Shown here: piece after piece, positions 6,721 to 45,164 of the stretch
Layout of the letters: the number at the start of each line of letters is the position of its first letter
Position numbering within the stretch: position 1 is the first letter of the stretch
Source: Candidatus Parcubacteria bacterium
GTDB taxonomy: Bacteria > Patescibacteriota > Minisyncoccia > Phycocordibacterales > UBA5272
DNA length: 53,342 nt
Reading direction: 5' to 3'
Assembly: GCA_039796775.1 (NCBI GenBank)
Contig: JBDKJD010000005.1
Span: 1-53,342, forward strand
Notes under the pieces: generated by a model
Seen by the model: the letters and a program-made list of their open reading frames with translations, nothing else
What the model was told of the DNA's origin: nothing
Databases searched by the model: none
Program-made: the position numbers and the translations under genes

Positions 6721-6744
6721 CTTTTTATTGATATTAAGATTTAT

Positions 6745-18291: not shown

Positions 18292-18416
18292 TACAAAATG
18301 CGAAATAGAAAGAACGTATGATATTTATATAAAATAAAATATTTATCAGTCAATATTGCCACTAGATATATTTCATGATTTTGCATGATTTTTTAGGAAG
18401 CGTATACTAAAAGGGT

Positions 18417-18956
18417 ATGAAAAAATATGTACCGTATATCGTAGGAATTGTTGTTCTTTTTGCTCTTGTATCTCTTGGGCAAAGTGTGATGAAAAACCGT
18501 AAGGTTGCAAATGATGAAAAAGTAACAGTCACAGAAAAAGTGGCTACAAAATTAGTAGAGGGGACAGTGACACGTTTCTTTGAAGGGGAGCAAGTTCTTG
18601 GATACGCTTTTGATATTCCAGAAATTGCGTCTACTCTTATCGAACGAGATGGGGCTAATGTGAAAGTAATTGGTGAAGCAAACGCTTTCATTAATGCTAT
18701 GTATTTTAGTTACGAAGGTGGACGTGGATATACACCGGCTGACTATATTACAGAAGTTATTGCACCAAATGTAAAAGTAGTATCTGTTACAGGAACAACT
18801 ACCATTGGTTCACAAGAGTGGACTGTAGCTGAAGGGTCGACAAGCGTATGGCATGTTGCTTCGGTTAAAGATGGGGCATGGCTCATCGTTGCAGAATCCA
18901 AAAAAGGAGACAATGAAACTGCGATGAATATCCTTGATTCTCTTACTGTAAAGTAA
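18417..18956 (+). CDS. Hypothetical secreted or membrane-anchored protein
   Basis: It has an N-terminal TM or signal helix (YIVGIVVLFALVSLG) and no motif. Confidence 0.55.
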   Translation: MKKYVPYIVGIVVLFALVSLGQSVMKNRKVANDEKVTVTEKVATKLVEGTVTRFFEGEQVLGYAFDIPEIASTLIERDGANVKVIGEANAFINAMYFSYEGGRGYTPADYITEVIAPNVKVVSVTGTTTIGSQEWTVAEGSTSVWHVASVKDGAWLIVAESKKGDNETAMNILDSLTVK

Positions 18957-18972
18957 TAGAGTGACAAACAAT

Positions 18973-19003
18973 AATCGCGCACATGTGCGCGATTTTGTTT
19001 TTT
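18973..19003. terminator. Bidirectional terminator (22-bp palindrome plus T-run)
   Basis: aatcgcgcacatgtgcgcgatt is followed by ttgtttttt. Confidence 0.8.
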
Positions 19004-19011
19004 CAATCGTT

Positions 19012-19167
19012 TTATGCAAACGTTGAACATGGGATACTTTGTTGCGAAGGATACTCGTCAAGGTCAGTTGACCATTCATCGACTCCATAAATACCGAGAT
19101 ATATGAGAGCATGGAACAAGATTTTTTCTAAAGCCCTTGAACCACTGCCGCGCATCTTAATTCGCAT
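19012..19167 (-). CDS. Possible 51-aa protein
   Basis: My own translation is MRIKMRGSGSRALEKILFHALIYLGIYGVDEWSTDLDEYPSQQSIPCSTFA*. TAAGGAG lies 6 nt before the ATG. The ORF ends just before the bidirectional terminator. Confidence 0.3.
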   Translation of the reverse strand: MRIKMRGSGSRALEKILFHALIYLGIYGVDEWSTDLDEYPSQQSIPCSTFA

Positions 19168-19270
19168 GATATTCTCCTTATAGAAGGTAACAGGAAGACA
19201 GAACTACTTTCTTTCATTCTACATCTTTTTGTATATGCTTCAAGTGGAAAATTGTGATAGAGTAAAGATA

Positions 19271-20302
19271 ATGAAAAAGAGGGTATTTGTAGGCATGTCA
19301 GGCGGAGTGGACTCCTCAGTGTCAGCGCTTTTGCTTAAGCGAGCGGGGTATGATGTCACTGGAGTGTTTATTAAAGTATGGCAACCAGACTTCATAGAGT
19401 GTACCTGGAAAGAAGACAGATTAGATGCGATGCGAGTCGCTGCGCATTTGGATATTCCTTTTGTTACACTGGATCTCGAAAAGGAATACAAAGAAGGAGT
19501 AATTGACTATATGATTAGTGAGTATAAAAGTGGCAGAACTCCTAATCCAGATGTGATGTGTAACCGCGAAGTGAAGTTCGGTGCTTTTTATACATGGGCC
19601 AAGTCACAAGGGGCAGACTATGTAGCTACGGGGCACTATGCAGAGCATAATGGAGAGACTCTTGTTAAGAGTAAAGATGAGAACAAAGACCAGACATACT
19701 TCCTTTGGGCTGTATCAAAAGAAGTTATTCCACAGATACTTTTTCCTGTTGGGGGGATTGAAAAGACCGAGGTGCGTACGATAGCAGCAGAGGTCAATCT
19801 TCCTGTTGCGTACAAGAAAGATAGTCAAGGATTATGTTTCGTCGGGACTATTGATATTAAGACTTTGCTTAAGGGGTATATAGAAGAGAAGAGGGGTGAT
19901 GTGATGAATGAAGAGGGGGAAGTAATTGGGTATCACGAAGGGGTTACGTTTTATACCATCGGTGAACGGCACGGTTTTGTGATTACAAAAAAGGGAGACG
20001 ACGAGAAACCATATTTTGTAATAGCAAAAGATTTTGATAAGAACACACTCACCGTATCTCATACCAAAAAAGAAGAAGCATATGGAAGTAGTATTAGTCT
20101 CACATCGTGTAATTGGACTAGTGATATTGTGGAGGGGAAGGTGTACGATGCACGTGCTCGCTATAGAGCACCTCTAGCTAAAGTTAAGGCCTTGTCGTCC
20201 TCTACATTTGAAGTTGTTGAAGGAGATATAGTTGCAGTGAGCGGACAGTCTCTTGTTGTGTATGATGGTGAGAAGTGCATAGGAGGGGGGGTAATTGTTT
20301 AG
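19271..20302 (+). CDS. mnmA: tRNA 2-thiouridine(34) synthase
   Basis: PP-loop motif GMSGGVDSS, with KDQTYFL. The start is trimmed to MKKRVFVG. Confidence 0.9.
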   Translation: MKKRVFVGMSGGVDSSVSALLLKRAGYDVTGVFIKVWQPDFIECTWKEDRLDAMRVAAHLDIPFVTLDLEKEYKEGVIDYMISEYKSGRTPNPDVMCNREVKFGAFYTWAKSQGADYVATGHYAEHNGETLVKSKDENKDQTYFLWAVSKEVIPQILFPVGGIEKTEVRTIAAEVNLPVAYKKDSQGLCFVGTIDIKTLLKGYIEEKRGDVMNEEGEVIGYHEGVTFYTIGERHGFVITKKGDDEKPYFVIAKDFDKNTLTVSHTKKEEAYGSSISLTSCNWTSDIVEGKVYDARARYRAPLAKVKALSSSTFEVVEGDIVAVSGQSLVVYDGEKCIGGGVIV

Positions 20303-20329
20303 AACATAGAACATAGAGCGTGTAGAATC
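20300..20329 (+). repeat. TAGAACA-type heptamer tract beginning at the mnmA stop
   Basis: The tract reads tagaaca tagaaca tagagcg tg tagaatc. Confidence 0.7.
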
Positions 20330-20340
20330 AGGGAAATAAA

Positions 20341-20366
20341 AAGCGGTCGCCTGAAGGCGACCGCTT
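20341..20366 (-). terminator. Rho-independent terminator for the minus-strand metal operon
   Basis: aagcggtcgcc tgaa ggcgaccgctt forms 11 bp. The T-run is on the minus strand. Confidence 0.8.
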
Positions 20367-20411
20367 GGTCTTGAGAGCCTGAGTCTCTACTAGTATGATA
20401 GATGCTATGAA

Positions 20412-21005
20412 CTAGCAACAACCACAAGAGTATTTTTCTACAGGCTCTTTATCGAACGCATAGTGTTTCCACTTACCAGCTCTGTCATTCTCGTGACGAC
20501 TCCATTTGGTCTGAAAGGAAAGGTCAAAGCAGATGGCGATGAATCTTTTATCTTTCGCTAAGTCCTCCATACTTGTCTCAGGGCTAACAAAAGCAAGATT
20601 GGTTATGTCGCCGCCGTTGTGCTTTTCCCTTAGATATCTATTGATAGCGTCGAATCGTCTATGGCAGATACCATCTACTTCGCAGTGAGCGATAAGATCA
20701 GCTACCGTTTTAAGAGGCTTGTCTTCGTGCTGATACGCTTCGTACTTGTAGATGAGCCAGATAAGTGGGTTTTGGAACTTCATACCATTCCCAATTTCAT
20801 CTAACCTTTTCTTTGCCTCTGCTAAAGGATCGAGGTTTTGCATCACCCCCGGCTTACCTAAAAGGTTGAACTTTGGTTTTTCAGACAAGATAAGACCGGA
20901 GGCTATTTGAGCATCAAGCTCCTTATAGTTCTTATAAGCAAGAAGAAGTGCATCTACCTCTCTCCTTGTGTATTCAAACAAGCTTTCGTTGCTAGTTGTA
21001 TTCAT
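20412..21005 (-). CDS. Hypothetical protein with HCxxxxxCH and C-terminal SCGCC
   Basis: The start is taken at MNTTSNE, preceded by AAAGGAG. It is the last gene of the ZIP / NAS-like operon. No known family is recognised. Confidence 0.6.
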   Translation of the reverse strand: MNTTSNESLFEYTRREVDALLLAYKNYKELDAQIASGLILSEKPKFNLLGKPGVMQNLDPLAEAKKRLDEIGNGMKFQNPLIWLIYKYEAYQHEDKPLKTVADLIAHCEVDGICHRRFDAINRYLREKHNGGDITNLAFVSPETSMEDLAKDKRFIAICFDLSFQTKWSRHENDRAGKWKHYAFDKEPVEKYSCGCC

Positions 21006-21054
21006 GGTTTCTCCTTTGATTTCTTGAGACATATTTTATTATCTTACAAAAAAC

Positions 21055-21819
21055 TTACGTCTTTTGTAAGATAATAAAAGAGTTGATAATAGAGCTAGTG
21101 GGGTTAATATGAAATACTGGAGAAAGTGCCGTTATTGTTTTATTTGGGACAGGAGGATAGAGAAGAGTTTTTGCACCCTGTGCAGATCTACACATAAGAA
21201 GTGCCCCTGGGTTTAACTTTTGATGAACAGAAAGAATAATTTCATGCTTAGAGGATTCTGTCATTCCAACTAATGCAGCTATATATACCAAATCAAAGGA
21301 GTCGTACGCTGTAAAAGTTCGAGCGTCCTCATATACTATTGAAATCATTGATTTTAATCCAAGACTTGCGATTACTTTGCACGCGAGAGAATAGCTTCTC
21401 TTGTTATTCTCAATCACTGTACAGGTTAGCCCATATTGTTGTGCGAGGAGAATCGCAGTAAGGGGAAGAGGTCCTCCACCTAAAAACAAAACCCTTTTCT
21501 TGTCTTTTAAAAGCTTAGAAAAGTAAGAGTGCTCTAGATTAACTAATTCAACATAATTCTGATAATACCAAAATGTAAGCATTGTTTTATTTGGCTCTCG
21601 GGAAGAGATTATTTGTTTTGCCCAGTATGCCTCCATCTCACTTTCTGCTTTGGAAGAGAGAGTTCTTAACTTTCTGATTGCGGCCTTCTTTAGGGTTATA
21701 TCGCTTGGTTCAGCTTGTAGACAAAAACACACAAGTTGAGAAAAAGCCTCATTGGTTTGGGGAGAGGGTCGGAGACTTGGCAAGGATAGTATTGTATTAA
21801 ACAAAACAGAATCAGTCAT
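21055..21819 (-). CDS. Nicotianamine synthase-like (NAS/CntL family) SAM-dependent aminobutyryl transferase
   Basis: It is collinear with NAS hallmarks. These are LPSLRPSPQTNEAFSQLV, FWYYQNYVELVNLE, LFLGGGPLPLTAILLA, DLVYIAALVGM, LMCRSAQGAKTLLYPPV and FHINPTSSIINSFIILQK. Confidence 0.85.
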   Translation of the reverse strand: MTDSVLFNTILSLPSLRPSPQTNEAFSQLVCFCLQAEPSDITLKKAAIRKLRTLSSKAESEMEAYWAKQIISSREPNKTMLTFWYYQNYVELVNLEHSYFSKLLKDKKRVLFLGGGPLPLTAILLAQQYGLTCTVIENNKRSYSLACKVIASLGLKSMISIVYEDARTFTAYDSFDLVYIAALVGMTESSKHEIILSVHQKLNPGALLMCRSAQGAKTLLYPPVPNKTITALSPVFHINPTSSIINSFIILQKT

Positions 21820-21903
21820 ATAAGCACTATACCACAGTTTTTAACTTTATGCAAATAGTTCGCGTATGTAAATTAGCGAGAGAGTGTAAGAAATCAGAGA
21901 ATG

Positions 21904-22593
21904 CTATGAGTTATCATGAGAGTGATTATGGTCACTATGACTGTGTGAATGCTTTTTGTGATATTTGATTTCTAAATACAGTATCCAGATAATAATAGTA
22001 GCGAGTGAGGAGAGGCTGGCGATTTCGAGGAAGTGGAATTGTTCCGGGTCTATTTCTTTGCCGAGGATAAAAATAAAAAGCGCAGACACAGGAGCTCCTC
22101 CTTGGGCGAGCATGCCGTAGAATATTGTTTTCTTAATTGAAAGATTGAGCCCCCTTAGTAGGGCGAGCGTGCCAAGTATCTTCGGGAATTCGTGCACTAC
22201 TATACCAAGAGTTGCAGCTCCACCTAATACTGGATTGACGAGATATGTTGCACCAATAACAGCTCCGTCAATGAGGGAGTGGAGTGCCTCGCTCAACACT
22301 ATACCCTTTACCCCGCCTTCTTCCCTGTTATGTCTATGGTGTTTATTAAATGATGCGAGAATAAAAAAGGTGATTGCTCCAACGATGAGAGAGACAAGTA
22401 ATTCTCTTAACCCTAATTCATCCCTATGATGCAGGACATCGCTTAGTACTGCGTAACTAAGGAGAAGTATGCCGAATCCAAGGAGAAGAACCTTTGCTTT
22501 CCCTGACACCAACTCTCTTCTCAAAAGAATAGCGAGTAGTGCCAAAAGGGGAAGAATAAAGGCGCTCAAGGTAGCTAGTAATAGAGTAGACAT
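21904..22593 (-). CDS. ZIP-family divalent metal (zinc) transporter with His-rich tail
   Basis: It is polytopic, with HEFPK-type and HSLIDG motifs. The C-terminus is HKKHSHSHSDHNHSHDNS. Confidence 0.8.
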   Translation of the reverse strand: MSTLLLATLSAFILPLLALLAILLRRELVSGKAKVLLLGFGILLLSYAVLSDVLHHRDELGLRELLVSLIVGAITFFILASFNKHHRHNREEGGVKGIVLSEALHSLIDGAVIGATYLVNPVLGGAATLGIVVHEFPKILGTLALLRGLNLSIKKTIFYGMLAQGGAPVSALFIFILGKEIDPEQFHFLEIASLSSLATIIIWILYLEIKYHKKHSHSHSDHNHSHDNS

Positions 22594-22676
22594 AGCACAT
22601 AGTATATCGCATAGAGTATATTTTGCAAAAGATTCGCATTAGCAAAAATACTGACACTATGATAGTATGATTACAT

Positions 22677-23105
22677 ATGCCAGTCTATCCAAAAGAAGAA
22701 CTCAAAACTATGGTTCAAGAAGCAGGACTTCGTGTCACAGATCATCGAATCTTTGTCTTAGATGTTGTAGCGCGTCAGAAGCAGCCGATTACTGTGTATG
22801 AGCTTGTTGATGTTCTCCGCAAAAAAGAGAATATTGATCAGGCGACCGTTTATCGTAACCTAAGCTCACTCCATGAAGCCGGACTTCTCCGTCGCCTTGA
22901 TTTTAATCATGGACATGCTCACTACGAACTTGAGACTGGACGAGCGTCACATCAGATAGTGTGCGGTAAATGTGAGACGATTGAGAAGATAGAAGGAATA
23001 TCCGTTGAAGATGCTGTCAAAAAAATGCTTAAGAAAAGCAAAAAGTTCAAGCATACAAGCACTCACTCAATAGAAATATACGGCCTATGCAAAAACTGCG
23101 CATAG
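22677..23105 (+). CDS. Fur-family metalloregulator (Zur-like by context)
   Basis: A winged-helix N-terminus (TDHRIFVLD, ATVYRNL) with CGKC...CKNC structural zinc cysteines. Confidence 0.85.
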   Translation: MPVYPKEELKTMVQEAGLRVTDHRIFVLDVVARQKQPITVYELVDVLRKKENIDQATVYRNLSSLHEAGLLRRLDFNHGHAHYELETGRASHQIVCGKCETIEKIEGISVEDAVKKMLKKSKKFKHTSTHSIEIYGLCKNCA

Positions 23106-24244
23106 GGATTCTCTTCCTGGTTGTTTCGGTGTTCATCACAAGTCCTATCACGATATCTTTTGCTCTGCCACAGGCTTTTCATGCTAATGGTGCATTTGTT
23201 GAAGATAAAGAGATACTAACGAGGGCGAAAGTGCTCTCTCTTGTTGATTCAAAAAAAGAGTTGATACCTAACACCAATACATATGTCACCTCTTCTCAGT
23301 TCAAAATAGAAATCACAGAAGGTGAACTTCTCGGAAGACAAGAGATTGTGGCTGATTCTGCTTTTCGCATAGAAGAAGGTGATACTGTGTATATTAGATA
23401 TACCAAGACTCAGGATGGAAGTGAGTATTTTAGTATTTTTGAAGTTGATAGATCAAAAGGATTATTGATTCTCTTTGGTATCTTCGTCGTCACTGTATTA
23501 CTCATAGGCAAAAAACAAGGCCTTCTCTCACTCATTGCTTTGTTTATATCGTTTGGTTTTATTTTTAAATTATTATTCCCTCAAATGATTTATGGAGGCA
23601 ATATTGTTCTTATTGCAACCACAGGCGCACTTCTATCTCTTTTTGTGGTGATGTTTGTTACGCATGGATTCTCTCGATTGACAGTATCTGCGTATCTTGG
23701 GTGTGCGTTATCAGTGCTTGCGACATTATTGCTCGCGCTTTATGCGACCACTCTTACATCGCTTACTGGATTCGCTACGGAAGAGTCAGTATTTCTTAAT
23801 CTCACAACCAAGGGCGAGCTTGATTTTGTCGCGCTCTTGATTGGTGGAATTATTATAGGAGTGATAGGAGTGATAGATGATATCAGTATTACTCAAGCAA
23901 GTGTTGTTGGAGAATTAAAAAACGCAGGATCTCATCTTTCTCGCAAAGAATTATATATACGCGCCATGAAAGTGGGAAAGGATCATATGGGGGCTGTGAT
24001 TAATACACTCATCTTGGCATATACTGGTGCATCTCTCCCGCTTCTCCTTTATCTCTATCTTAGTTCTAACCCCCTCCACATGCTTGTTAACGGAGAAATA
24101 GTCACCACAGAGATAGTGAGGACTCTTGTCGGATCAACAGGGCTTCTTTTGGCGGTACCGCTCACCACGCTCATCGCTGTGTTCTTAATGAAAGAAGGAG
24201 ACACTTCATCTGGTTCTCATGCACACCATCATCATTCTCATTAG
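23087..24244 (+). CDS. YibE/F-family membrane protein with His-rich C-terminus
   Basis: Motifs GVIDDISITQASVVGEL and GAVINTLILAYTGASL, with a tail of SGSHAHHHHSH. It overlaps the regulator gene by 19 nt. Confidence 0.7.
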   Translation: MQKLRIGILFLVVSVFITSPITISFALPQAFHANGAFVEDKEILTRAKVLSLVDSKKELIPNTNTYVTSSQFKIEITEGELLGRQEIVADSAFRIEEGDTVYIRYTKTQDGSEYFSIFEVDRSKGLLILFGIFVVTVLLIGKKQGLLSLIALFISFGFIFKLLFPQMIYGGNIVLIATTGALLSLFVVMFVTHGFSRLTVSAYLGCALSVLATLLLALYATTLTSLTGFATEESVFLNLTTKGELDFVALLIGGIIIGVIGVIDDISITQASVVGELKNAGSHLSRKELYIRAMKVGKDHMGAVINTLILAYTGASLPLLLYLYLSSNPLHMLVNGEIVTTEIVRTLVGSTGLLLAVPLTTLIAVFLMKEGDTSSGSHAHHHHSH

Positions 24245-24344
24245 GTTTAGTTAGAAGACTATGAAATATCGTCCATATAATTGAATTCTTCCTCGTTTTT
24301 AGTGTTGTATAAACATCATACATACAGGTATACTTAACTACACT

Positions 24345-24797
24345 ATGCTATCCGAAACATCAAAAGCACCTGAATTCTCTCTCAAAGATCAAGACGATAA
24401 GTCTCATTCTCTTAGTGATTATAGAGGCAAAAAGGTGCTCCTTTATTTTTATCCAAAAGATGATACACCCGGATGCACTACAGAGGCGTGTAATTTTAGA
24501 GATAATTATGAAGAGCTACAAAAGGCGGGGCTTGTGATCCTTGGGGTGAGTAAAGATACTGTGAAGAGTCACAAGAAGTTTGCAGATAAGTATGAACTTC
24601 CTTTCCCATTATTGGCAGACGAAGATACCTCTGTGTGTCAGGCATATGGAGTGTGGAAATTAAAGAAGTTCATGGGGCGAGAGTATATGGGAATTGATCG
24701 AATGAGTTTCTTGATTGACGAAGAGGGGAAGATAGAAAAGATATTTAATGACGTTAAACCAAAAGAGCATATCGGAGAAGTGAAGGCGGAGCTGTAA
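24345..24797 (+). CDS. bcp: Thioredoxin-dependent peroxiredoxin Bcp
   Basis: The YFYPKDDTPGCTTEA motif is present. Confidence 0.9.
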   Translation: MLSETSKAPEFSLKDQDDKSHSLSDYRGKKVLLYFYPKDDTPGCTTEACNFRDNYEELQKAGLVILGVSKDTVKSHKKFADKYELPFPLLADEDTSVCQAYGVWKLKKFMGREYMGIDRMSFLIDEEGKIEKIFNDVKPKEHIGEVKAEL

Positions 24798-24838
24798 ACA
24801 TCAGATTCTTTAGCCGCAGTATCTATACGTTTTATGTG

Positions 24839-24867
24839 TTGACAGTATCTATGGCTCTTGTTACTAT
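24839..24867 (+). promoter_or_regulatory. Sigma70-like promoter TTGACA-17nt-TACTAT
   Basis: TTGACA is at 24839-24844 and TACTAT at 24862-24867. A direct repeat CAGTATCTAT lies at 24817-24826 and 24843-24852. Confidence 0.5.
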
Positions 24868-24901
24868 AGTCATTTCGTTGTTCTTATAAAGAGGAAATAG
24901 A

Positions 24902-25276
24902 TTGAAATCTAACATAAGCATCGCTTCGATCGGGAGTGACCTTAGAAAAGCTCATAACACATCACAAAGATTTGCACACCTTATGTACGTTGTCACCCCA
25001 AGAGATCACGGTCTCCTTGGTCAACATCCAACAACCTCACATTTTATGAGTCAGAATGAGTTACTAATCGTTCCTCCTCAGAAGTTGCGTGTAGTAAAAA
25101 TTTCTGGGTATGTACGGGGGGATTCTGCTCGTTATGAGTATTTTGTTTCATCGACAGGTCACGGGCAAGAGAAAAACGAAATGTACCTACCTTTAATCAG
25201 TCGACTATATCATTCAGAAGAAGAGGCTATGGCAGGAATCGATAGACATATTGTTGTTGTTGCAAAAAAACGTTGA
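24902..25276 (+). CDS. Hypothetical protein (TTG start)
   Basis: AGAGGA lies 7 nt upstream of the TTG. The protein is 124 aa with no motif. Confidence 0.45.
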   Translation: MKSNISIASIGSDLRKAHNTSQRFAHLMYVVTPRDHGLLGQHPTTSHFMSQNELLIVPPQKLRVVKISGYVRGDSARYEYFVSSTGHGQEKNEMYLPLISRLYHSEEEAMAGIDRHIVVVAKKR

Positions 25277-25348
25277 ACAAACAAATTCAGACATCTTTCG
25301 TCTTTTATGGCGGAGGGTGCTTTTTATGATTTAGATGTAAGATATATA

Positions 25349-25378
25349 AAAAGTGCCGCTTCAAGGAGCGGCACTTTT
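25349..25378. terminator. Bidirectional terminator
   Basis: aaaagtgccgct tcaagg agcggcactttt. Confidence 0.8.
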
Positions 25379-25403
25379 GATCACAGATCAATATGTGTTT
25401 AGG

Positions 25404-25739
25404 TTAATACAAATCAAAAAGTAAGCTGGGGTTACCGTACAAGATACGGTCGCCATTTTGGGAGGAGAGTGCATCTTTTGCCCATAGATGCAGGAGTGTT
25501 TCATTTTTCTTGTCACCACATATACGAAGCTCACACCCCCCCACGAGAATAACAAGTCGTCTGTCTTTTCTCTTGACGAGAATAGGCTCAGAGATTATCT
25601 TCATCAGGAAGCCTTTCACCTCTACACCTCCTCGTTTTGCAATTTTGAGAATGAGACCGTTTTTTCTCATGGATGCGGCGCTAAGCGCTTTGGCTAGAAG
25701 ATTGACGTTGAGTCGAAATGGTTTTTTTCTGGTTGCCAC
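25404..25739 (-). CDS. Hypothetical protein (GTG start)
   Basis: AGGAG lies 8 nt upstream of the GTG. The protein is 111 aa, basic at the N-terminus, with no motif. Confidence 0.45.
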   Translation of the reverse strand: MATRKKPFRLNVNLLAKALSAASMRKNGLILKIAKRGGVEVKGFLMKIISEPILVKRKDRRLVILVGGCELRICGDKKNETLLHLWAKDALSSQNGDRILYGNPSLLFDLY

Positions 25740-25913
25740 AATGTGTTCTCCTTGTTGAATGTACAGTTAATACGGTTAATTCCGTTAATATATTATACAA
25801 TATTTTTTAAGAAAGTAAATATTTATTTTAAACAATAAAAATAAATTCATACAGTGAAGGTAGTAAATAGTGTTATTGGCAAGTTACTGCTTAGATCTTT
25901 AAGAATAAATAAA

Positions 25914-25943
25914 AATCGAGCAACGCAATACGCGTGCTCGATT
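25914..25943 (-). terminator. Rho-independent terminator for CDS 25987..26361
   Basis: aatcgagcaacgc / gcgtgctcgatt forms a stem with one bulge. The T-run is on the minus strand. Confidence 0.65.
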
Positions 25944-25986
25944 GATGCTCATCACTTAATGAACAGAGGTTGTTGATTGAGTGTGA

Positions 25987-26361
25987 TTAGGTTGAGAGGG
26001 TGATTTTGTTACCAATAACCTTGACTTTCTGGGCTGCCAGGATAAAGGCGCCTTTTGAAGGCCACAGCTTCTCCTCTGTGAGCGAAGCAATCAAGTTCTC
26101 TGCCTGCCTGTCTTTTGCGATGAGCAGCCGATCACCAAACACCATTCGAACGTATAAGGCCTGCCTTGAAGGTCTTGAATTTTCTTTAATTTGAACAAAA
26201 TTAAGGGTTTTTGGACTGACTGTTATTTCTTGGGAACATGTTTTCGTGTTTCCAGTAGCTGTTGCGTTCATGTAATGTACGCTGCCAATTGTGATTGTGA
26301 TATCACCGGTGATTGCTTTGACTGCCTTTTTAATAGCAGTAGCCTGTTCTTGACATGTCAT
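25987..26361 (-). CDS. Hypothetical protein
   Basis: The start is taken at MTCQEQ, preceded by AAGAGG. The protein is 124 aa with no motif. Confidence 0.45.
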   Translation of the reverse strand: MTCQEQATAIKKAVKAITGDITITIGSVHYMNATATGNTKTCSQEITVSPKTLNFVQIKENSRPSRQALYVRMVFGDRLLIAKDRQAENLIASLTEEKLWPSKGAFILAAQKVKVIGNKITLST

Positions 26362-26543
26362 GTTTGCCTCTTGTGTGAAAAAGTACATTTATAACATTTT
26401 AGTAGTGTGCTACTTTAATGTTGCCTTGTTTCTGACTTTTGTTGTAACACTTTCGTCAGAATTACTATACTACATCCTATTTTTTTGTGTGTAAAGTATT
26501 TTTGTGTGTATACTTTAAAAGAGAATTAATAGTAACAATATCT

Positions 26544-27296
26544 ATGAAAACAGAAAATATAAAAATAATAGCAATAGGGTCATTTGCATTTATTCTTGGG
26601 ATGATCATGCTGGCATCCGGTGTTCGTGACATGGGGCAGAATAATGCGATCTCAGTAACAGGTACAGCAGAGAAAATGGTTACAAGCGATGCTGCTAAGT
26701 GGACACTCTCTATCACTCGTCAGGGAGACGCACAGGCTCTTCTCTTTGTCTCAAATAGTGTTAAGTCAGAAGGTCTTGCGACTGCGAGTTATTTGAAATC
26801 ACAAGGAATAGAGGATAAGGATATTACTGTGCAGCCAATAGTATCTAATGTTGTGTGCCAGTCACAACAACAAGTGATGTATGACGGCTTCGGCAAGCAA
26901 CAATGTTCAGGTTCTTTTAATTATAGTATTACTCAAACAATTATCGTTGAATCATCTGATGTTGAGCGTATCAAAAATCTTTCACTCAACGCGCAGTCAG
27001 AATTAGCCAAGAAAGGCATTGTGATTCAAACCGTTGCTGTTGATTATTTTTATAACAAATTATCTGAGCTTCGAGTTGAACTTCTCGAAGAAGCGTCAAA
27101 AAACGCCAAAGAACGAGCAGAAGCAATAGCTAAGTCCACAGGAGATAGAATTGGAGGAGTGCGTAATGCTTCACAAGGAGTATTCCAAGTTACACAAAGA
27201 AACAGTATTGACGTGAGTGATTATGGTTCCTATGATACTTCAACAATAGAGAAAAAGGTCACAGCAATAGTAAGAGCTTCATTTGAAGTGAAGTAA
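26544..27296 (+). CDS. SIMPL-domain (DUF541) envelope protein
   Basis: It has an N-terminal TM helix. GTAEKMVTSDAAKWTLSI, NAKERAEAIAKSTG and a C-terminal VTAIVRASFEV are typical of SIMPL proteins. Confidence 0.75.
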   Translation: MKTENIKIIAIGSFAFILGMIMLASGVRDMGQNNAISVTGTAEKMVTSDAAKWTLSITRQGDAQALLFVSNSVKSEGLATASYLKSQGIEDKDITVQPIVSNVVCQSQQQVMYDGFGKQQCSGSFNYSITQTIIVESSDVERIKNLSLNAQSELAKKGIVIQTVAVDYFYNKLSELRVELLEEASKNAKERAEAIAKSTGDRIGGVRNASQGVFQVTQRNSIDVSDYGSYDTSTIEKKVTAIVRASFEVK

Positions 27297-27316
27297 TACC
27301 CAATACTTAGTATTCG

Positions 27317-27359
27317 ATAACAAAATCCATCAAAGAAATTCTTTGATGGATTTTGTTAT
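27317..27359. terminator. Long perfect inverted repeat (21-nt arms) between convergent genes
   Basis: ataacaaaatccatcaaagaa a ttctttgatggattttgttat. Confidence 0.75.
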
Positions 27360-27382
27360 GATTAGGTCTGATATAGATAGAA

Positions 27383-28147
27383 TTACTTTTTAAGCGCTGA
27401 GAGGATCGCTGCCTCAATGTACGCATATTCTCTCGCTCCTTCGATTGCAGCAATCTGCTCATATCGGTCACCATTTCTTTTAAGAACAAAGGTAGCCGGG
27501 GTGCCGCTTACTCCAGCTTGTATACCATCTGCTATATATGCGTTCACAATATCGCTTGATGTTTGTTGTGAAAGACATGAAGCAAATGTAGTAGCGTTTG
27601 CTCCGACATCTTTTGCGAGAGCTTCTTTTGCCCCGTTTGGAAGTTTCATTGAATTATTATTTATTTTGTAACTAAATAATCTATCAATATATTCACGTCG
27701 CTTGGCTGCGCCTAGCTCTTGACCTATACATTCTATAGCTACTGCTTCACCGAAAGCATTCGGGTGAATACTTGTTAATGGGAAATGTCTATAATCAAAT
27801 GCTACTTTATCGCTATAATTGCGCTGTATCTCTGACATGGTTGGATATAGGCGCGCGCAGAAAGGGCACTCTGTGTCAGAGTATTCAACGACAAGTACGT
27901 CACTTTTGATATTACCAGTAGCGTAACTATTTTCTCCAAGAGACGATCCTAAGAAGTAAGTGGTGTCACTAGAACTTTTCCCTTCGATGATGATCGCATA
28001 GAGAATGTGAGACATTCCTAAAATTATAGCCGCGATAATAATAGCTATAGGAGTTGTGAGAAAAGGTTTATGCCTTTTGATAGAAAGTGTTTTAATATCT
28101 TCGCTTGTTTCTGGCTGTGTGTCAGCGGATTCTAAGTGTGTGTTCAT
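27383..28147 (-). CDS. DsbA-family thiol:disulfide oxidoreductase, membrane anchored
   Basis: A CPFC active site follows a TM helix. Confidence 0.8.
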   Translation of the reverse strand: MNTHLESADTQPETSEDIKTLSIKRHKPFLTTPIAIIIAAIILGMSHILYAIIIEGKSSSDTTYFLGSSLGENSYATGNIKSDVLVVEYSDTECPFCARLYPTMSEIQRNYSDKVAFDYRHFPLTSIHPNAFGEAVAIECIGQELGAAKRREYIDRLFSYKINNNSMKLPNGAKEALAKDVGANATTFASCLSQQTSSDIVNAYIADGIQAGVSGTPATFVLKRNGDRYEQIAAIEGAREYAYIEAAILSALKK

Positions 28148-28210
28148 AACTAAATGGTGGAGTAAATAGTGATAAGAGGTTTATACATGTAGTACACTAA
28201 GAAGCATATC

Positions 28211-28789
28211 ATGCTACAACCAAAACAACAGATGTTCTCTGCGCATATCATACGACATCTCATTTTTTCTGCTTTTCTTGAATTCGGTCCGGTATTGTTG
28301 TTTTTATCGACAACTCCTTATGTGAGCATTCATACGTCAACCGCATTACTTATGGTTGCGACCACTGTATCTACCTTTATTACTTTTCGTTTACAGAAAC
28401 GCATACCGTATCTTGCGCTTTATATCGCGCTCATCACCACATTCTTTGGATACCTCACTATTCATTTGAATGATGTTTCTTTTATTCAAATGAGAGATAC
28501 ATTATATGATATGACATGCGCTCTCACCTTAGTGATAGGGATGATATTTCAAAAACCATTTCTCAAGCATGCTTTTGATTCACTATTCCCGCTCACAAAT
28601 AGAGCATGGAATAGACTCACTCATTTATGGATTGGTTACTTTTTGATCACAGCTTGTGCTAATGAAATAGTTCGAACATTTTTTGATTTTTCGGAGTGGT
28701 TATTTTTTAAGGGTGTGATGATTGGTCTCACAAGTGTCTTTGGTTTATTCGCTCTTTATGTCAGTTTTGAATTGAAGGATGATCAATAA
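28211..28789 (+). CDS. YciB/IspZ-like inner-membrane (septation-associated) protein
   Basis: It has five hydrophobic helices and a family-like pattern (EFGPVLLF, FGYLT, WNRL..LW, ANEIV). Confidence 0.5.
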   Translation: MLQPKQQMFSAHIIRHLIFSAFLEFGPVLLFLSTTPYVSIHTSTALLMVATTVSTFITFRLQKRIPYLALYIALITTFFGYLTIHLNDVSFIQMRDTLYDMTCALTLVIGMIFQKPFLKHAFDSLFPLTNRAWNRLTHLWIGYFLITACANEIVRTFFDFSEWLFFKGVMIGLTSVFGLFALYVSFELKDDQ

Positions 28790-28897
28790 CAGGTGCCTAA
28801 AAAGGGATGCTCAGCATTATATTCTAAAAGTGTTAACTTCGTGTGATGAAGGTAGAAACATAATCAAATAAACAAAAAGCGCTAGTTTTTATTTTTG

Positions 28898-28906
28898 TGA
28901 TATAAT
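28898..28906 (+). promoter_or_regulatory. Extended -10 element TGATATAAT upstream of the atp operon
   Basis: It matches TGnTATAAT and lies 15 nt upstream of the atpB ATG. No clear -35 is present. Confidence 0.35.
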
Positions 28907-28920
28907 CGATTTGAATAATT

Positions 28921-29754
28921 ATGGCGATCAATAGTCAAGAACATGCAGGGAGTATTTTCCAAGTTGTAGAACCGCTCCCGACAATACAAGCACCTGTTTT
29001 GGGACAGGTTGGTCCATTTGCAATAGCGACATCAACAATGGCGACATTTTTTGTCATGGCGCTCATTGTTATTATGGTGATATATGCTTCTCGTTCAAAA
29101 CTTATTCCATCCAAAGTCCAGCATGTTTTTGAGATGATCTATGAGTCTCTCTCTTCGTTCTTTTCTTCTATATTAGGAAGTAGAGAAAAAGGCGAGAAGG
29201 TCACTCCTTTTGTTGGAGCGCTTTTTGTGTATCTTGTTATTGCTAATGTGCTCCCGATTTTACCAGGAGTATCTGGATTTTATGTTTATAATCAAGTGGG
29301 GGAGCATATAACACTGTTCCGTGGGGCGACAACTGATTTTAGTACTACCTTTGGGCTCGCTGTTGCAGTGATTGTGATGATGCAATATTTTGGAATGAAA
29401 GAGCAAGGAGTCTTCCCATATCTCTCTCATTTTATTCAGATTAAACAAGTGATCAAAGGATTCAAGAAGAGCTTAGGAGAGGGGATGGTCTCGATCGTTG
29501 GTTTCCTTGTTGGTATCATTGAGCTCATCTCTGAATTCGCTAAGATGTTGTCGCTGTCACTTCGATTATTTGGGAATATGTTCGCCCATGAAGTGCTTAT
29601 GATCATTCTGCTTGGTGCGTTCGCATTCGTTGTCCCTGCGTTATGGATGGGTATGGGTGTACTTGTATCAGTTGTGCAAGCTATAGTATTCGTATCTTTG
29701 GTTACTGTATATTATTCTCTTGTGCTTAAAAAAGAAGGTAAGGACGGACATTAA
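28921..29754 (+). CDS. atpB: F-type ATP synthase subunit a
   Basis: It is polytopic, with the LSLRLFGNMFAHE motif containing the essential Arg. Confidence 0.9.
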   Translation: MAINSQEHAGSIFQVVEPLPTIQAPVLGQVGPFAIATSTMATFFVMALIVIMVIYASRSKLIPSKVQHVFEMIYESLSSFFSSILGSREKGEKVTPFVGALFVYLVIANVLPILPGVSGFYVYNQVGEHITLFRGATTDFSTTFGLAVAVIVMMQYFGMKEQGVFPYLSHFIQIKQVIKGFKKSLGEGMVSIVGFLVGIIELISEFAKMLSLSLRLFGNMFAHEVLMIILLGAFAFVVPALWMGMGVLVSVVQAIVFVSLVTVYYSLVLKKEGKDGH

Positions 29755-29911
29755 AAGAGTATCTAGAATATTCGTTATTCTTCAAGTTTATAGAATCCCT
29801 TTTTTCCATATTTTAAGCTTTTCTGGTATACTCTTTTAGTAAGTCCTATCCGGGGCTCTATTTTATTGAAAACTTAAGTAAATAGATTGTATTTGAATTG
29901 TATATTTAATT

Positions 29912-29939
29912 ACAAACTATCAACCATTAACTAATAACT
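29912..29939 (+). repeat. Heptamer tract (acaaact atcaacc attaact aataact) in the atpE leader
   Basis: Direct reading. It ends 8 nt before the ATG at 29948. Confidence 0.6.
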
Positions 29940-29947
29940 GAATTTAT

Positions 29948-30166
29948 ATGACTCCAGAAGCTGCAATTTATATCGCAAAAGGAATGTGTATCTTAGCAAT
30001 GCTCGGTACCGCTATCGGTCAAGGGTATCTCGTAGGTAAGACTATGGAAGCGATTGGTCGCAACCCAGATATTGAAGGATCTATCTTCTCTAAGATGATT
30101 ATCGCAATCGCGATGACAGAAACTACAGCGATCTTCGCTCTCGTAGCATTTTTCCTCCTCAAGTAA
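29948..30166 (+). CDS. atpE: F-type ATP synthase subunit c
   Basis: A 72-aa hairpin with GRNPD in the loop and a conserved Glu (MTETTAIF). Confidence 0.9.
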   Translation: MTPEAAIYIAKGMCILAMLGTAIGQGYLVGKTMEAIGRNPDIEGSIFSKMIIAIAMTETTAIFALVAFFLLK

Positions 30167-30169
30167 CAG

Positions 30170-30228
30170 CCGTTAGCCTTTGGCTTTTAGTGTTTAGCTA
30201 ATAGTCAAATGCTAAAAGCTAAATGCTT
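30170..30228. repeat. Degenerate GCTAAAA-family heptamer tract containing both orientations
   Basis: The tract reads gttagcc tttggcttttag tgtttagctaatag ... gctaaaagctaaatgc. TAG or TAA spacing is 7 nt within the runs. Confidence 0.55.
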
Positions 30229-30236
30229 TTATCGTT

Positions 30237-30731
30237 ATGTCTGAACTCTTAAATATTCTTTCTTCAGTTGGATTCAATTGGCATGTTGCACTTGCTAACT
30301 TTTTCAACTTTCTCATTATTTTGTTCCTTCTTCATACTTTTTTCTTTAAGAAATTAGGTAAGACAATAAAGGAAAGAGGTGAGATTATTGAACGTGGCTT
30401 AAACCAGGCGAGCGAAGGGGAGAAGATACTACTCTCCGCTTCCGAAGAAAAGAAATCAATTATAGCTGAAGCCAAAAAAGAAAGTCATGCAATCTTGGAA
30501 CGCGCTAAGTCAGATGGAGAAACTATCGTCGCTTCTATGAAAGCAGATGCTGATAAAGAAATAGGAAAGGCAAAAGAAGCACTTCTTAAAAAAGAACAAG
30601 ATCTAACAACTTCGGTTGAGAAGGAGTTCCTATCTCGCGCCCCTAGTCTCGTCGCTTCTCTTTATAAAACGACACTACAAAAAGAAATGAATCAAGCTGA
30701 AAACGATGCTTTTATAGCTCGTGTTAAATAA
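30237..30731 (+). CDS. atpF: F-type ATP synthase subunit b
   Basis: An N-terminal TM helix is followed by a long charged helix. Operon position fits. Confidence 0.8.
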   Translation: MSELLNILSSVGFNWHVALANFFNFLIILFLLHTFFFKKLGKTIKERGEIIERGLNQASEGEKILLSASEEKKSIIAEAKKESHAILERAKSDGETIVASMKADADKEIGKAKEALLKKEQDLTTSVEKEFLSRAPSLVASLYKTTLQKEMNQAENDAFIARVK

Positions 30732-30737
30732 TTCATC

Positions 30738-31085: not shown

Positions 31086-31109
31086 ATAAGTAGTAATAAC
31101 AAACACACC

Positions 31110-44669: not shown

Positions 44670-44711
44670 CCGAGACATATTTTTGTAAGGAATGATATAC
44701 TTTCTAACAAC

Positions 44712-45092: not shown

Positions 45093-45164
45093 AAGGGTTA
45101 CACACAGTAGAAAAGATAAGAAAAAGTTATACTCTTAAGATGGTGCGCTAAGTTATTTTATTAT

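What the first reader, a model, noticed from the sequence alone, without database searches (positions are those of the whole stretch)
20412..24244. Zur-type divergent locus pairing a nicotianamine-synthase-like enzyme with ZIP and YibE/F transporters
The minus-strand operon encodes three proteins: a ZIP transporter with a His-rich tail, a protein collinear with nicotianamine synthase across all hallmark blocks, and a Cys-rich unknown. It diverges from a Fur-family regulator that is translationally coupled (19-nt overlap) to a YibE/F membrane protein ending in HAHHHHSH.

NAS-like enzymes make nicotianamine in plants, thermonicotianamine in an archaeon, and the aminobutyryl intermediate of opine metallophores such as staphylopine and pseudopaline (CntL). 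Here there is no CntM-type opine dehydrogenase, no CntK racemase and no Cnt-type ABC importer. The product and its export or import route would therefore differ from the known bacterial pathways.

A metallophore pathway in a reduced, probably host-dependent bacterium would be unexpected. The 83-nt divergent region contains a TTTTGCAAAA palindrome (22621-22630) and CATAGT...ACTATG inverted elements that could be operator sites.
Basis: partly seen in the sequence, partly recalled or inferred. Interest (0 to 1): 0.7.

Follow-up and report, generated by a model that had tools for sequence, protein, structure and literature searches.

The report
Nicotianamine synthase with a new partner
A very small, probably host-dependent bacterium has a metal-regulated gene cluster where a plant-type chelator-making enzyme is always paired (and in some relatives fused) with an undescribed protein domain that is elsewhere fused to zinc-chaperone GTPases, which suggests an unrecognised way of handling scarce metals.

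Summary
In detail: all five ORFs, the His-rich tails, the 19-nt overlap and the 83-nt divergent region are real. The enzyme is a true core-type nicotianamine synthase (Pfam NAS, 178 bits) with both catalytic residues. It is close to archaeal, plant and fungal NAS and far from CntL, so the absence of CntM is expected rather than odd.

The main finding is the "Cys-rich unknown". It belongs to an undescribed domain family, here called X, with 175 representative clusters, no Pfam hit and no PDB fold relative. X sits in one operon with NAS in all 12 lineages examined. It is fused to NAS in 4 representative clusters and to COG0523 metallochaperone GTPases in 21.

It is a conserved 6-5-6 inverted repeat, ATGCRA-N5-TTGCA, present twice: once at the Fur/ZIP promoters and once at a separate NAS promoter. 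Its layout matches a Nur box, not a Zur box, yet the regulator lacks Nur's nickel site. In a relative the same box also controls ZIP and COG0523 genes, which favours zinc without proving it.

Most likely this is a metal-starvation module of CPR bacteria that combines uptake, a cytoplasmic nicotianamine-type chelator and an X-mediated step. It is a new variant of a known kind.

The parts
20341..20366 (-). Intrinsic-terminator-like hairpin that ends the NAS-X transcription unit
   Evidence: 11-bp stem with 8 GC pairs followed by TTTATTT, 46 nt after the X stop codon. No terminator-like site lies between ZIP and NAS.
20412..21005 (-). X: a 197-aa protein of an undescribed all-helical domain family, the obligate NAS partner. 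The longest ORF extends to 21032.
   Evidence: No Pfam or NCBIfam hit. 45 close homologs, all unnamed. 175 representative clusters in an exhaustive HMM search. AF2 model pLDDT 85, pTM 0.79. No Foldseek match in PDB or BFVD. In one operon with NAS in all 12 lineages, directly downstream in 11. Fused to NAS, CobW or a methyltransferase. A Shine-Dalgarno-like AAAGGAG precedes Met10.
21055..21819 (-). Core-type nicotianamine synthase (254 aa)
   Evidence: Pfam NAS 177.8 bits. MtNAS E 3e-21 against CntL E 1e-3. E63 and Y89 match MtNAS E81 and Y107. E59 and the AALVGMT loop match AtNAS1 E73 and VGMD (PMC10248798).
21826..21855 (-). NAS promoter: -35-like TTTGCA/TTGCAT and an extended -10 TG-TATAGT, ending 6 nt before the ATG
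   Evidence: The -35 element lies inside operator 2.
21850..21864 (-). Operator 2: the 6-5-6 box CGCGA-ACTAT-TTGCA in the ZIP-NAS spacer
   Evidence: A box occupies the same position in L002, L003, L004, L007 and L008.
21904..22593 (-). Short, divergent CPR-type ZIP metal importer (229 aa) with a His-rich loop and tail
   Evidence: Orthologs hit Pfam Zip at E 2e-7 and 8e-6. hhalign to a bona fide ZIP gives 97.4% probability. The profile hits only BbZIP chains, at the TM4/TM5 motifs. Family members are named zinc/cadmium transporter or ZupT.
22601..22628 (-). ZIP promoter: TTGCAA-16-TATACT, ending 7 nt before the ATG
   Evidence: The -35 element lies inside operator 1.
22624..22638 (-). Operator 1: the 6-5-6 box TGCGA-ATCTT-TTGCA in the Fur/ZIP divergent region
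   Evidence: It is conserved in every lineage of the clade. The layout and core match the Nur box tTGCaa-N5-ttGCAA (PMC2691836).
22677..23105 (+). Fur-family metal-sensing repressor (142 aa), with two CxxC pairs and atypical sensing residues
   Evidence: Pfam FUR 73 bits. Zur 63, Fur 59.5 and PerR 55 bits, all below cut-off. Nur's Ni-site and M-site are not conserved.
23087..24244 (+). YibE/F-family membrane protein (385 aa) with a C-terminal HAHHHHSH; its start overlaps the regulator gene by 19 nt
   Evidence: Pfam YibE_F 218 bits. The same 19-nt overlap occurs in L002 and L008. No PDB sequence relative. A hairpin at 23084-23106 spans the overlap.

Best explanation
The locus is a metal-starvation module of a CPR/Patescibacteria bacterium, controlled by one Fur-family repressor.

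With its metal bound, the repressor would sit on two copies of a 6-5-6 inverted repeat (ATGCRA-N5-TTGCA). One copy overlaps the -35 element of the ZIP promoter and abuts the repressor's own promoter. The other overlaps the -35 element of a separate NAS-X promoter. When the metal runs short, four things would be switched on: the ZIP importer, the regulator together with a YibE/F membrane protein, a core-type nicotianamine synthase, and the X protein.

The synthase would make nicotianamine, or a close relative such as thermonicotianamine, from SAM without any opine dehydrogenase.

I infer that the chelator acts mainly inside the cell, as a buffer or shuttle for the imported metal. I also infer that X works physically with the synthase and connects the chelator to the loading of metalloproteins. 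In related lineages a COG0523 GTPase fused to X, or encoded beside it, would assist that step. Zinc is the most likely metal.

Shown: the gene identities, the NAS-X linkage and fusions, and the conserved operator and its position. Inferred: repression by the regulator, the metal, the product, the cytoplasmic site of action and the role of X.
For: NAS identity and catalytic residues: (a NAS-X fusion's N-terminal half superposes on MtNAS, target TM-score 0.87).

NAS-X linkage:
- Same operon in all 12 distinct lineages.
- Four divergent NAS-X fusion clusters.
- The fusion model has pLDDT 87.8 and pTM 0.77.

X and metallochaperones:
- 21 of the 150 best representatives are CobW-X fusions, 20 of them with a CxCC motif.
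- L020 has the operon ZIP-NAS-CobW-X-Fur.
- L019 has NAS followed by a CobW-X fusion.

Operator:
- Found at the NAS-operon promoter in 10 lineages, and a second time in the ZIP-NAS spacer of every ZIP-type locus.
- It overlaps -35 elements, as repressor sites do (PMC6103462).

Regulon content in L011: boxes precede ZIP/ArsP permease, a COG0523 GTPase plus flavoprotein, a MinD-type ATPase, and NAS-X. ZIP and COG0523 are typical zinc-starvation regulon members (PMC6103462, PMC2823685).

A Fur-Zip-NAS operon also occurs on an unrelated metagenomic contig.

No exporter, substrate-binding protein or ABC/TonB importer accompanies NAS-X in any locus. ZIP proteins carry free ions (established knowledge of the family).
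Against: - No experiment backs any step.
- The metal is not identified. The operator layout is that of nickel-sensing Nur, and the regulator lacks the canonical sensing residues of Zur, Fur, PerR and Nur.
- All characterised bacterial NAS-like enzymes feed secreted metallophores.
- YibE/F has no known function and could be an exporter or importer. It accompanies the module in most Saccharibacteria-type loci.
- X has invariant His, Cys, Glu, Lys, Arg, Tyr and Trp residues that could equally form an enzyme active site.
- The window encodes no COG0523 or MinD-type NTPase anywhere in its 53 kb.
- The tools give no PAE or coordinates, so the NAS-X interface is not verified.
Confidence: 0.42

Rival explanations
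1. X is the second enzyme of the pathway. It would convert the NAS product, or prepare its acceptor, into a new nicotianamine-derived compound, taking the functional place of CntM. It would be a metal-dependent enzyme, and in some lineages a fused COG0523 GTPase would load its metal.
For: Consecutive pathway enzymes are often fused, and NAS-X fusions exist. The residues invariant across 150 distant members (Y95, K96, Y100, H116, C123, R126, W177, E181, K187, W188) look like a polar active site or a binding pocket for a polycarboxylate. Fusion of a chaperone to its client would explain CobW-X.
Against: No cofactor-binding motif, no Pfam hit and no fold relative support an enzymatic role. CobW-X fusions are five times more frequent than NAS-X fusions. 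MtNAS-type and plant-type NAS need no second enzyme.
Confidence: 0.25
2. This is a secreted metallophore system. The NAS(-X) product is exported, binds metal outside the cell and is taken up again, with YibE/F (and perhaps the ZIP-like protein) acting as exporter or importer.
For: Staphylopine, pseudopaline, yersinopine and bacillopaline all work this way (PMC7438024, 10.1101/641969). YibE/F is co-transcribed with the regulator in the window, L002, L005, L008, L009, L012 and L015. It has an extracytoplasmic N-terminal domain (judged by eye) and a His-rich tail.
Against: YibE/F is missing from NAS-X modules in L007, L019 and L020 and from the Fur-Zip-NAS operon in L016. No substrate-binding protein, ABC, MFS or EamA transporter is linked. 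ZIPs are ion carriers. An epibiont with a tiny cell would lose most of a diffusible product that costs three SAM per molecule (inference).
Confidence: 0.2
3. The module responds to nickel or cobalt rather than zinc. It would be a Nur-like regulon in which the chelator and the NTPases serve nickel or cobalt supply.
For: The operator has the layout and core of the Nur box, tTGCaa-N5-ttGCAA (one search compared). Nicotianamine-type ligands and Cnt systems handle nickel and cobalt (Cnt stands for cobalt-nickel transport; own knowledge). The G3E family includes the HypB, UreG and CobW nickel and cobalt chaperones, and the L005/L012 variants carry a CbiA/MinD-type ATPase.
Against: Nur's nickel site is not conserved: H70 and H72 correspond to R73 and D75. 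No nickel or cobalt enzyme (urease, hydrogenase, Ni-SOD, B12 pathway) appears in any locus. The CobW domains carry the CxCC motif and, in some, His-rich stretches that are usual in zinc-linked COG0523 proteins.
Confidence: 0.15

Closest known systems
Archaeal thermonicotianamine synthase MtNAS (PDB 3FPE) and the core-type (class III) fungal and moss nicotianamine synthases
   Same: Same Pfam family. The catalytic Glu and Tyr are conserved (E63, Y89), as is the GGGPLPLT SAM-binding motif. Length is about 250-300 aa with no C-terminal extension. E59 and the AALVG-x-D/T loop, which are shared with nicotianamine-producing NAS, are present. The fold matches MtNAS at a target TM-score of 0.87 in a related fusion.
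   Different: Only 28-33% identical to any named NAS. Encoded in a CPR bacterium. Always paired with, or fused to, the X domain. Under a Fur-family operator. The product is unknown.
Cnt opine-metallophore systems (CntKLM plus ABC importer and exporter): staphylopine, pseudopaline, yersinopine, bacillopaline
   Same: A bacterial NAS-superfamily enzyme in a metal-regulated cluster next to metal transport genes.
   Different: The enzyme is not CntL: 29.9 bits against a cut-off of 350, and 18.6% identity. There is no CntM, CntK, Opp- or FecCD-type importer, or MFS/EamA exporter. X has no counterpart in Cnt systems.
Zur regulons with ZIP/ZupT and COG0523 GTPases (for example C. glutamicum cg0794/cg0795 and B. 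subtilis yciC)
   Same: A Fur-family repressor with operators over -35 elements. The regulon contains a ZIP importer and, in relatives, a COG0523 GTPase paired with an oxidoreductase.
   Different: The operator is 6-5-6, not 7-1-7, 9-1-9 or 10-1-10. The regulator scores below the Zur cut-off and has different candidate metal ligands. Known Zur regulons do not contain a NAS-X pair.
Nur, the nickel-responsive Fur homolog of Streptomyces coelicolor (PDB 3EYY)
   Same: Same operator architecture and core, TGCAA-N5-TTGCA. Both proteins have two CxxC pairs, and H126 aligns with H130.
   Different: The Ni-site residues H70 and H72 and the M-site residues H33, H86, H88 and H90 are not conserved. The regulon holds no nik or sod genes.

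Membership tests
Nicotianamine synthase family (Pfam PF03059) | Full-length match to the family model above the gathering score | tested here: met
   177.8 bits against a cut-off of 27.1, covering model positions 15-271 of 276.
Nicotianamine synthase family (Pfam PF03059) | Catalytic Glu and Tyr (MtNAS E81 and Y107; AtNAS1 E77 and Y106) | tested here: met
   E63 and Y89 align with them. The register is fixed by the E81Q mutant chain. Both are invariant in the 20-sequence alignment (A4) and present in all 42 NAS-type sequences of the larger set; only the CntL fragment has Ile at Y89 (PMC10248798).
Nicotianamine synthase family (Pfam PF03059) | Features reported as specific to nicotianamine-producing NAS (AtNAS1 E73 and the 206-VGMD-209 loop) | tested here: inconclusive
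   E59 is present. The loop is present as AALVGMT, with Thr in place of Asp, and is variable within the clade. MtNAS has a 4-residue gap there. These features do not prove the product.
Nicotianamine synthase family (Pfam PF03059) | Makes nicotianamine (three aminobutyrate units from SAM) or a relative | not testable with these tools
   Needs an enzyme assay and LC-MS.
CntL / opine-metallophore (Cnt) system | CntL equivalog score | tested here: not met
   NCBIfam NF033601 gives 29.9 bits against a cut-off of 350. PDB CntL E 1e-3. 18.6% identity.
CntL / opine-metallophore (Cnt) system | An adjacent CntM opine dehydrogenase, with or without a CntK racemase, plus an ABC importer | tested here: not met
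   None appears in the window's gene tables or in 20 further ORFs, and none in any related locus.
ZIP metal transporters (Pfam PF02535) | Match to the family model above the gathering score | tested here: not met
   The window protein has no hit even at E 10. Orthologs score 25.8 and 30.9 bits against a cut-off of 35.1.
ZIP metal transporters (Pfam PF02535) | Detectable homology to bona fide ZIPs, including the TM4/TM5 metal-site motifs | tested here: met
   hhalign to the L020 ZIP (Pfam Zip 119 bits) gives 97.4% probability, E 1.5e-11. Apart from one designed repeat protein, the profile hits only BbZIP chains; there HSLIDG aligns with HNLPEG and HELPK with QDVPEG. Some family members carry precomputed Pfam Zip hits.
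Zur (zinc uptake regulator) | Equivalog-level sequence match | tested here: not met
   NF008646 gives 63 bits against a cut-off of 167. Fur (59.5) and PerR (54.9) score about the same.
Zur (zinc uptake regulator) | Zur-box type operator (n-1-n palindrome) | tested here: not met
   The conserved operator is 6-5-6. Zur boxes are 7-1-7, 9-1-9, 10-1-10 or 23-bp palindromes.
Zur (zinc uptake regulator) | Regulon of zinc-uptake genes and COG0523 genes | tested here: met
   Boxes precede the ZIP gene in the window, and ZIP plus a COG0523 GTPase in L011.
Zur (zinc uptake regulator) | Zinc-dependent DNA binding | not testable with these tools
   Needs EMSA or a reporter assay.
Nur (nickel uptake regulator) | 6-5-6 Nur box, tTGCaa-N5-ttGCAA | tested here: met
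   ATGCRA-N5-TTGCA is found in 10 lineages and is a perfect palindrome in L011.
Nur (nickel uptake regulator) | Ni-site H70, H72, H126 and M-site H33, H86, H88, H90 | tested here: not met
   They align with R73, D75, H130 and with Q36, R89, S91, Q93. The Nur sequence was validated against 3EYY.
Fur family (Pfam PF01475) | Family model match and two CxxC pairs | tested here: met
   73.3 bits against a cut-off of 23.1. C96xxC99 and C138xxC141 are invariant.
YibE/F family (Pfam PF07907) | Family model match | tested here: met
   218 bits, model positions 1-240 of 241. The family has no established function and no PDB relative.

The most novel reading that the evidence does not exclude
X is a new kind of metal-trafficking protein that works through a nicotianamine-type ligand. 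One version: X takes metal from the chelator, or gives metal to it, and passes it to COG0523 GTPases and their client proteins. The more radical version: the synthase builds the aminocarboxypropyl chain on X itself, or on another protein, giving a protein-borne chelator. Either way, nicotianamine chemistry would be part of intracellular metalloprotein loading in bacteria. It would also give COG0523 chaperones a small-molecule partner.
Probability: 0.15. Interest if true: 0.9.

Novelty: new variant of a known kind. Interest (0 to 1): 0.72.

Why it matters
Three points would interest specialists.

1. Published surveys place NAS outside plants only in fungi and actinobacteria, and they call its bacterial distribution poorly known (PMC12454661). 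Here it is vertically conserved in CPR bacteria, whose metabolism is minimal. Such a bacterium keeping an enzyme that costs three SAM per product implies a strong need for it.

2. An undescribed domain family is tied to NAS by gene order in every lineage examined and by natural fusions. It is tied to COG0523 GTPases by many more fusions. This is a concrete, testable lead on how COG0523 chaperones obtain or hand over metal, which the Zur review cited here describes as unclear (PMC6103462). It also bears on whether bacteria use nicotianamine-type molecules inside the cell, as plants and fungi do.

3. The regulator combines a Nur-type operator layout with zinc-type regulon content and unusual candidate ligands. 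That makes it a useful case for how Fur-family specificity evolves.

Tried and rejected
- **X as a Cys-rich structural zinc protein.** Rejected. Across 150 distant members only H116 and C123 are invariant, C117 is 72% conserved and C168 is not conserved. The CGCC tail is variable or absent.
- **Regulator as a Nur ortholog.** Rejected on metal-site residues.
- **X-methyltransferase fusions as AzeJ/VioH-type azetidine synthases** (lead from PMC11794875). Rejected. The nearest PDB sequences are HemK and RsmC, and AzeJ and VioH are not among the hits.
- **NAS-X fusions as read-through artefacts in UGA-recoded lineages.** Unlikely. Four clusters only 33-37% identical to each other share the architecture. 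The junction runs directly into the first conserved helix of X. The proteins are 35-45 aa shorter than two concatenated genes.
- **Phylogeny.** A neighbour-joining tree with bootstrap did not resolve the deep branches or the sister group of the CPR clade. It gives no evidence for or against transfer from actinobacterial hosts.
- **Fold searches for X** in PDB and BFVD found nothing.
- **YibE/F.** The PDB sequence search found nothing, and the literature search returned only unrelated name matches.
- **Literature.** Searches for NAS together with Saccharibacteria, Patescibacteria, CPR or COG0523 found no description of this module.
- **Third box-like match, inside the NAS gene (21367-21381).** Not conserved in relatives, so treated as chance.

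Full report
**1. Checking the observation**

- The 254-aa protein (21055-21819, minus strand) matches Pfam NAS over nearly the whole model: 177.8 bits against a cut-off of 27.1.
- The 142-aa protein (22677-23105) is a Fur-family member, 73 bits.
- The 385-aa protein (23087-24244) is a YibE/F member, 218 bits, and ends in HAHHHHSH.
- By coordinates, the regulator gene and the YibE/F gene overlap by 19 nt, and the divergent region is 83 nt.
- TTTTGCAAAA is at 22621-22630.
- The 229-aa membrane protein has the His-rich tail but no Pfam Zip hit of its own.
- The 206-aa ORF has no hit in Pfam or NCBIfam.

No opine dehydrogenase, racemase or Cnt-type ABC importer is present. I checked the gene tables covering window 18410-31819 and 20 further large ORFs. 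The rest of the window is chromosomal housekeeping. GC content is even across the locus.

**2. The host**

Reference-genome relatives of the locus are uncultured MAGs labelled Candidatus Saccharibacteria (L012, L015). Close homologs of the membrane protein are labelled Pacebacteria, Parcubacteria, Gracilibacteria or "Patescibacteria group". I could not place the window more precisely than CPR/Patescibacteria.

**3. The enzyme**

Against solved structures, the best match is archaeal thermonicotianamine synthase MtNAS (E 3e-21). CntL reaches only E 1e-3. The CntL equivalog model gives 29.9 bits against a cut-off of 350.

The E81Q mutant chain fixes the alignment register. With it, query E63 and Y89 correspond to the catalytic E81 and Y107 of MtNAS. 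These are E77 and Y106 in AtNAS1, and both are essential by mutagenesis (PMC10248798).

I aligned named plant, fungal and actinobacterial NAS with the metagenomic relatives.
- E63 and Y89 are invariant across the NAS-type sequences.
- E59 corresponds to AtNAS1 E73. It is essential there and was reported as conserved in nicotianamine producers. It is present in every NAS-type sequence aligned at that position.
- The AALVG-x-D/T loop (plant VGMD) is present as AALVGMT. MtNAS has a gap at that spot.
- CntL differs at E59 and Y89 in this alignment.

Identity is 28-33% to MtNAS and to actinobacterial, fungal and plant NAS, and 18.6% to CntL. A bootstrapped neighbour-joining tree did not resolve the deep nodes.

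The enzyme is therefore a core-type NAS. Enzymes of this type complete their product without an opine dehydrogenase, so the lack of CntM is expected. Sequence alone cannot tell whether the product is nicotianamine, thermonicotianamine or something else.

**4. Conservation of the neighbourhood**

I recovered 20 related loci. A tblastn map and the gene tables gave the following.
- NAS and the 206-aa protein's domain, called X here, lie in one operon in all 12 distinct lineages.
- X is directly downstream of NAS in 11 of them. In L020 a CobW gene sits between the two.
- The Fur-family gene accompanies them in 9 lineages, usually divergent from the NAS operon and followed by YibE/F.
- A ZIP-like gene is present in most.
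- One sub-clade (L005, L012) has a CbiA/MinD-type ATPase and a different His-rich membrane protein in place of the ZIP.
- The flanking genes mnmA, bcp, dsbA-like and the ATP synthase operon are syntenic even where NAS identity is only 47-60%. That argues for vertical inheritance.

**5. X is the unexpected part**

- Its 45 close homologs are all unnamed and lack Pfam domains.
- An AlphaFold model built from 31 sequences is confident (pLDDT 85.4, pTM 0.79) and all-helical.
- Foldseek finds nothing in PDB (best E 4.9) or in BFVD (best E 1.3).
- An exhaustive profile search of 1.84 billion representatives finds 175 clusters, 147 of them at E <= 1e-10.

Domain architectures of the 150 best representatives:

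| Architecture | Count |
|---|---|
| X alone | 120 |
| CobW/COG0523 GTPase followed by X | 21 (20 with the CxCC metal motif) |
| NAS followed by X | 4 |
| X followed by a HemK-like methyltransferase | 2 |
| Other N-terminal extensions | 3 |

The NAS-X fusions appear genuine. The four clusters are only 33-37% identical to each other. The NAS C-terminus runs within a few residues into the first conserved helix of X. The proteins are shorter than two concatenated genes would be. A model of one fusion has pLDDT 87.8 and pTM 0.77 from only four sequences. Its N-terminal half superposes on MtNAS at a target TM-score of 0.87, and no PDB entry covers X.

Genomic context of two distant X members confirms the link.
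- In L019, from a UGA-recoded lineage, NAS is followed directly by a CobW-X fusion.
- L020 has the operon ZIP, NAS, CobW, X, Fur.

Across 150 distant members the invariant residues are Y95, K96, Y100, H116, C123, R126, W177, E181, K187 and W188. C117 is 72% conserved and C168 is not conserved. The C-terminal CGCC tail is variable or absent. This looks like a polar pocket for a ligand or for catalysis, not a Cys4 site.

A ribosome-binding sequence before Met10 puts the likely start of X at 21005.

**6. The membrane proteins**

A profile of the 229-aa protein and its orthologs hits, apart from one designed repeat protein, only BbZIP-type chains in PDB. The hit is weak, but it falls exactly on the TM4/TM5 metal-site motifs. 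Two orthologs hit Pfam Zip at E 2e-7 and 8e-6, below the cut-off. hhalign against the bona fide short ZIP of L020 gives 97.4% probability. The family is widespread in Patescibacteria and is often annotated ZupT or zinc/cadmium transporter. It is a short, divergent ZIP.

A Fur-Zip-NAS operon with a canonical ZIP also occurs on an unrelated metagenomic contig that lacks X (L016).

YibE/F has no PDB sequence relative, and I know of no established function for it.

**7. The operator and regulator**

I aligned the promoter regions of all lineages. They share a 6-5-6 inverted repeat, ATGCRA-N5-TTGCA, which is a perfect 8-5-8 palindrome in L011.

The window has two promoter copies.
- 22624-22638 lies in the Fur/ZIP divergent region.
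- 21850-21864 lies in the 84-nt ZIP-NAS spacer.
- The second position is conserved in L002, L003, L004, L007 and L008.

Each box overlaps a -35-like element. These belong to TTGCAA-16-TATACT ahead of the ZIP gene and to TTTGCA-18-TG-TATAGT ahead of NAS. So NAS-X has its own regulated promoter. There is no terminator between ZIP and NAS, and a strong one lies after X.

The layout and core equal the Nur box, tTGCaa-N5-ttGCAA (PMC2691836). Zur boxes are n-1-n palindromes (PMC6103462 and PMC2823685). Yet alignment with the validated Nur sequence shows that the Ni-site is not conserved: H70 and H72 align with R73 and D75. The M-site is not conserved either. NCBIfam cannot separate Zur, Fur and PerR for this protein.

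Regulon content is the best clue to the metal. In L011 the boxes precede four units:
- ZIP and an ArsP-type permease;
- a full COG0523 GTPase followed by a flavoprotein oxidoreductase;
- a MinD-type ATPase;
- NAS-X.

The COG0523-oxidoreductase pair parallels C. glutamicum cg0794/cg0795, which are direct zinc-dependent Zur targets. This favours zinc but does not prove it.

**8. Interpretation**

Shown by the data:
- gene identities;
- the obligate NAS-X association and the fusions;
- the association of X with COG0523;
- a conserved operator at repressor-type positions.

Inferred:
- The regulator represses at these boxes when its metal is bound.
- The metal is zinc.
- The chelator acts mainly in the cytoplasm. 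No exporter or chelate importer travels with NAS-X, and ZIPs carry free ions.
- X links the chelator to metalloprotein loading.

The main rivals are these: X is a second pathway enzyme; the product is a secreted metallophore that uses YibE/F; or the module senses nickel or cobalt. The rivals about X's role and about secretion are not fully exclusive of the main explanation.

**9. Novelty**

Literature searches found no description of NAS in Saccharibacteria, Patescibacteria or CPR, and none of a NAS-COG0523 gene association. Recent NAS evolution papers state that NAS outside plants is known only from fungi and actinobacteria, and that its bacterial distribution is poorly known (PMC12454661).

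I rate this a new variant of a known kind: a nicotianamine-type, metal-regulated system with a new, unexplained core component.

Noticed in passing
L019:6961-10598: This contig comes from a UGA-recoded lineage: six genes contain 36 in-frame TGA codons and no in-frame TAA or TAG. It carries NAS followed directly by a CobW(GCICC)-CobW_C-X fusion. The module therefore spans lineages with different genetic codes.
   Followed up: partly
L011:5194-5958: The NAS gene of this MAG has a single in-frame TGA at codon 150, although TGA is a normal stop there. It is probably a nonsense mutation or an assembly error. The same locus carries five operator boxes, including ones before a COG0523 GTPase plus flavoprotein, an ArsP-type permease and a MinD-type ATPase.
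   Followed up: partly
window 21820-21831, 22594-22606, 22663-22676: The -10-like hexamers of the NAS, ZIP and regulator promoters end only 6-8 nt before the start codons, and no Shine-Dalgarno sequence is present. These three mRNAs may be leaderless. X, the second gene of its unit, does have a good ribosome-binding site.
   Followed up: partly
window 23084-23106: A hairpin, CCTATGCGCAGTTTTTGCATAGG, covers exactly the 19-nt overlap between the regulator's stop codon and the YibE/F start codon. It could gate translational coupling.
   Followed up: no
window 21367-21381: A third match to the operator pattern lies inside the NAS coding sequence. It is not conserved in relatives, and about 0.5 matches per window are expected by chance.
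   Followed up: partly
L005:5715-9144 and L012:2668-7210: These loci show a variant module. The regulator has an HHHHH motif, the promoter has two boxes with CGCAA half-sites, and a CbiA/MinD/NifH-type ATPase precedes NAS. A 190-200-aa His-rich membrane protein follows X in place of the ZIP.
   Followed up: partly
L016:5723-7783: A Fur (117 aa), canonical ZIP (266 aa), NAS operon lies on a metagenomic contig of unknown origin. It has no X and no 6-5-6 box. The Fur+ZIP+NAS combination therefore recurs without X on at least one other contig.
   Followed up: partly
L017:7001-14903: On a contig of unknown taxonomy, a NAS gene sits beside an ABC exporter, genes resembling the ergothioneine pathway (GCS2, DinB_2/FGE-sulfatase, GATase_4, Methyltransf_33) and ZnuA.
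   Followed up: no
proteins P0019 and P0026: Other metagenomic lineages have NAS fused to a GNAT acetyltransferase domain (423-429 aa). The NAS product may be acetylated there.
   Followed up: no
window 1-53342: The whole 53-kb window has no Rfam match at gathering thresholds, which means no tRNA, rRNA or riboswitch.
   Followed up: no
window 43062-47152: Two tandem histidine kinases (535 and 527 aa; the second has a 7TM sensor domain) are each followed by an ORF of about 130 aa. That is notable for a reduced genome.
   Followed up: no
window 5851-7731: Transketolase is encoded as two separate ORFs, one for the N-terminal TPP-binding part and one for the pyrimidine-binding and C-terminal part.
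   Followed up: no
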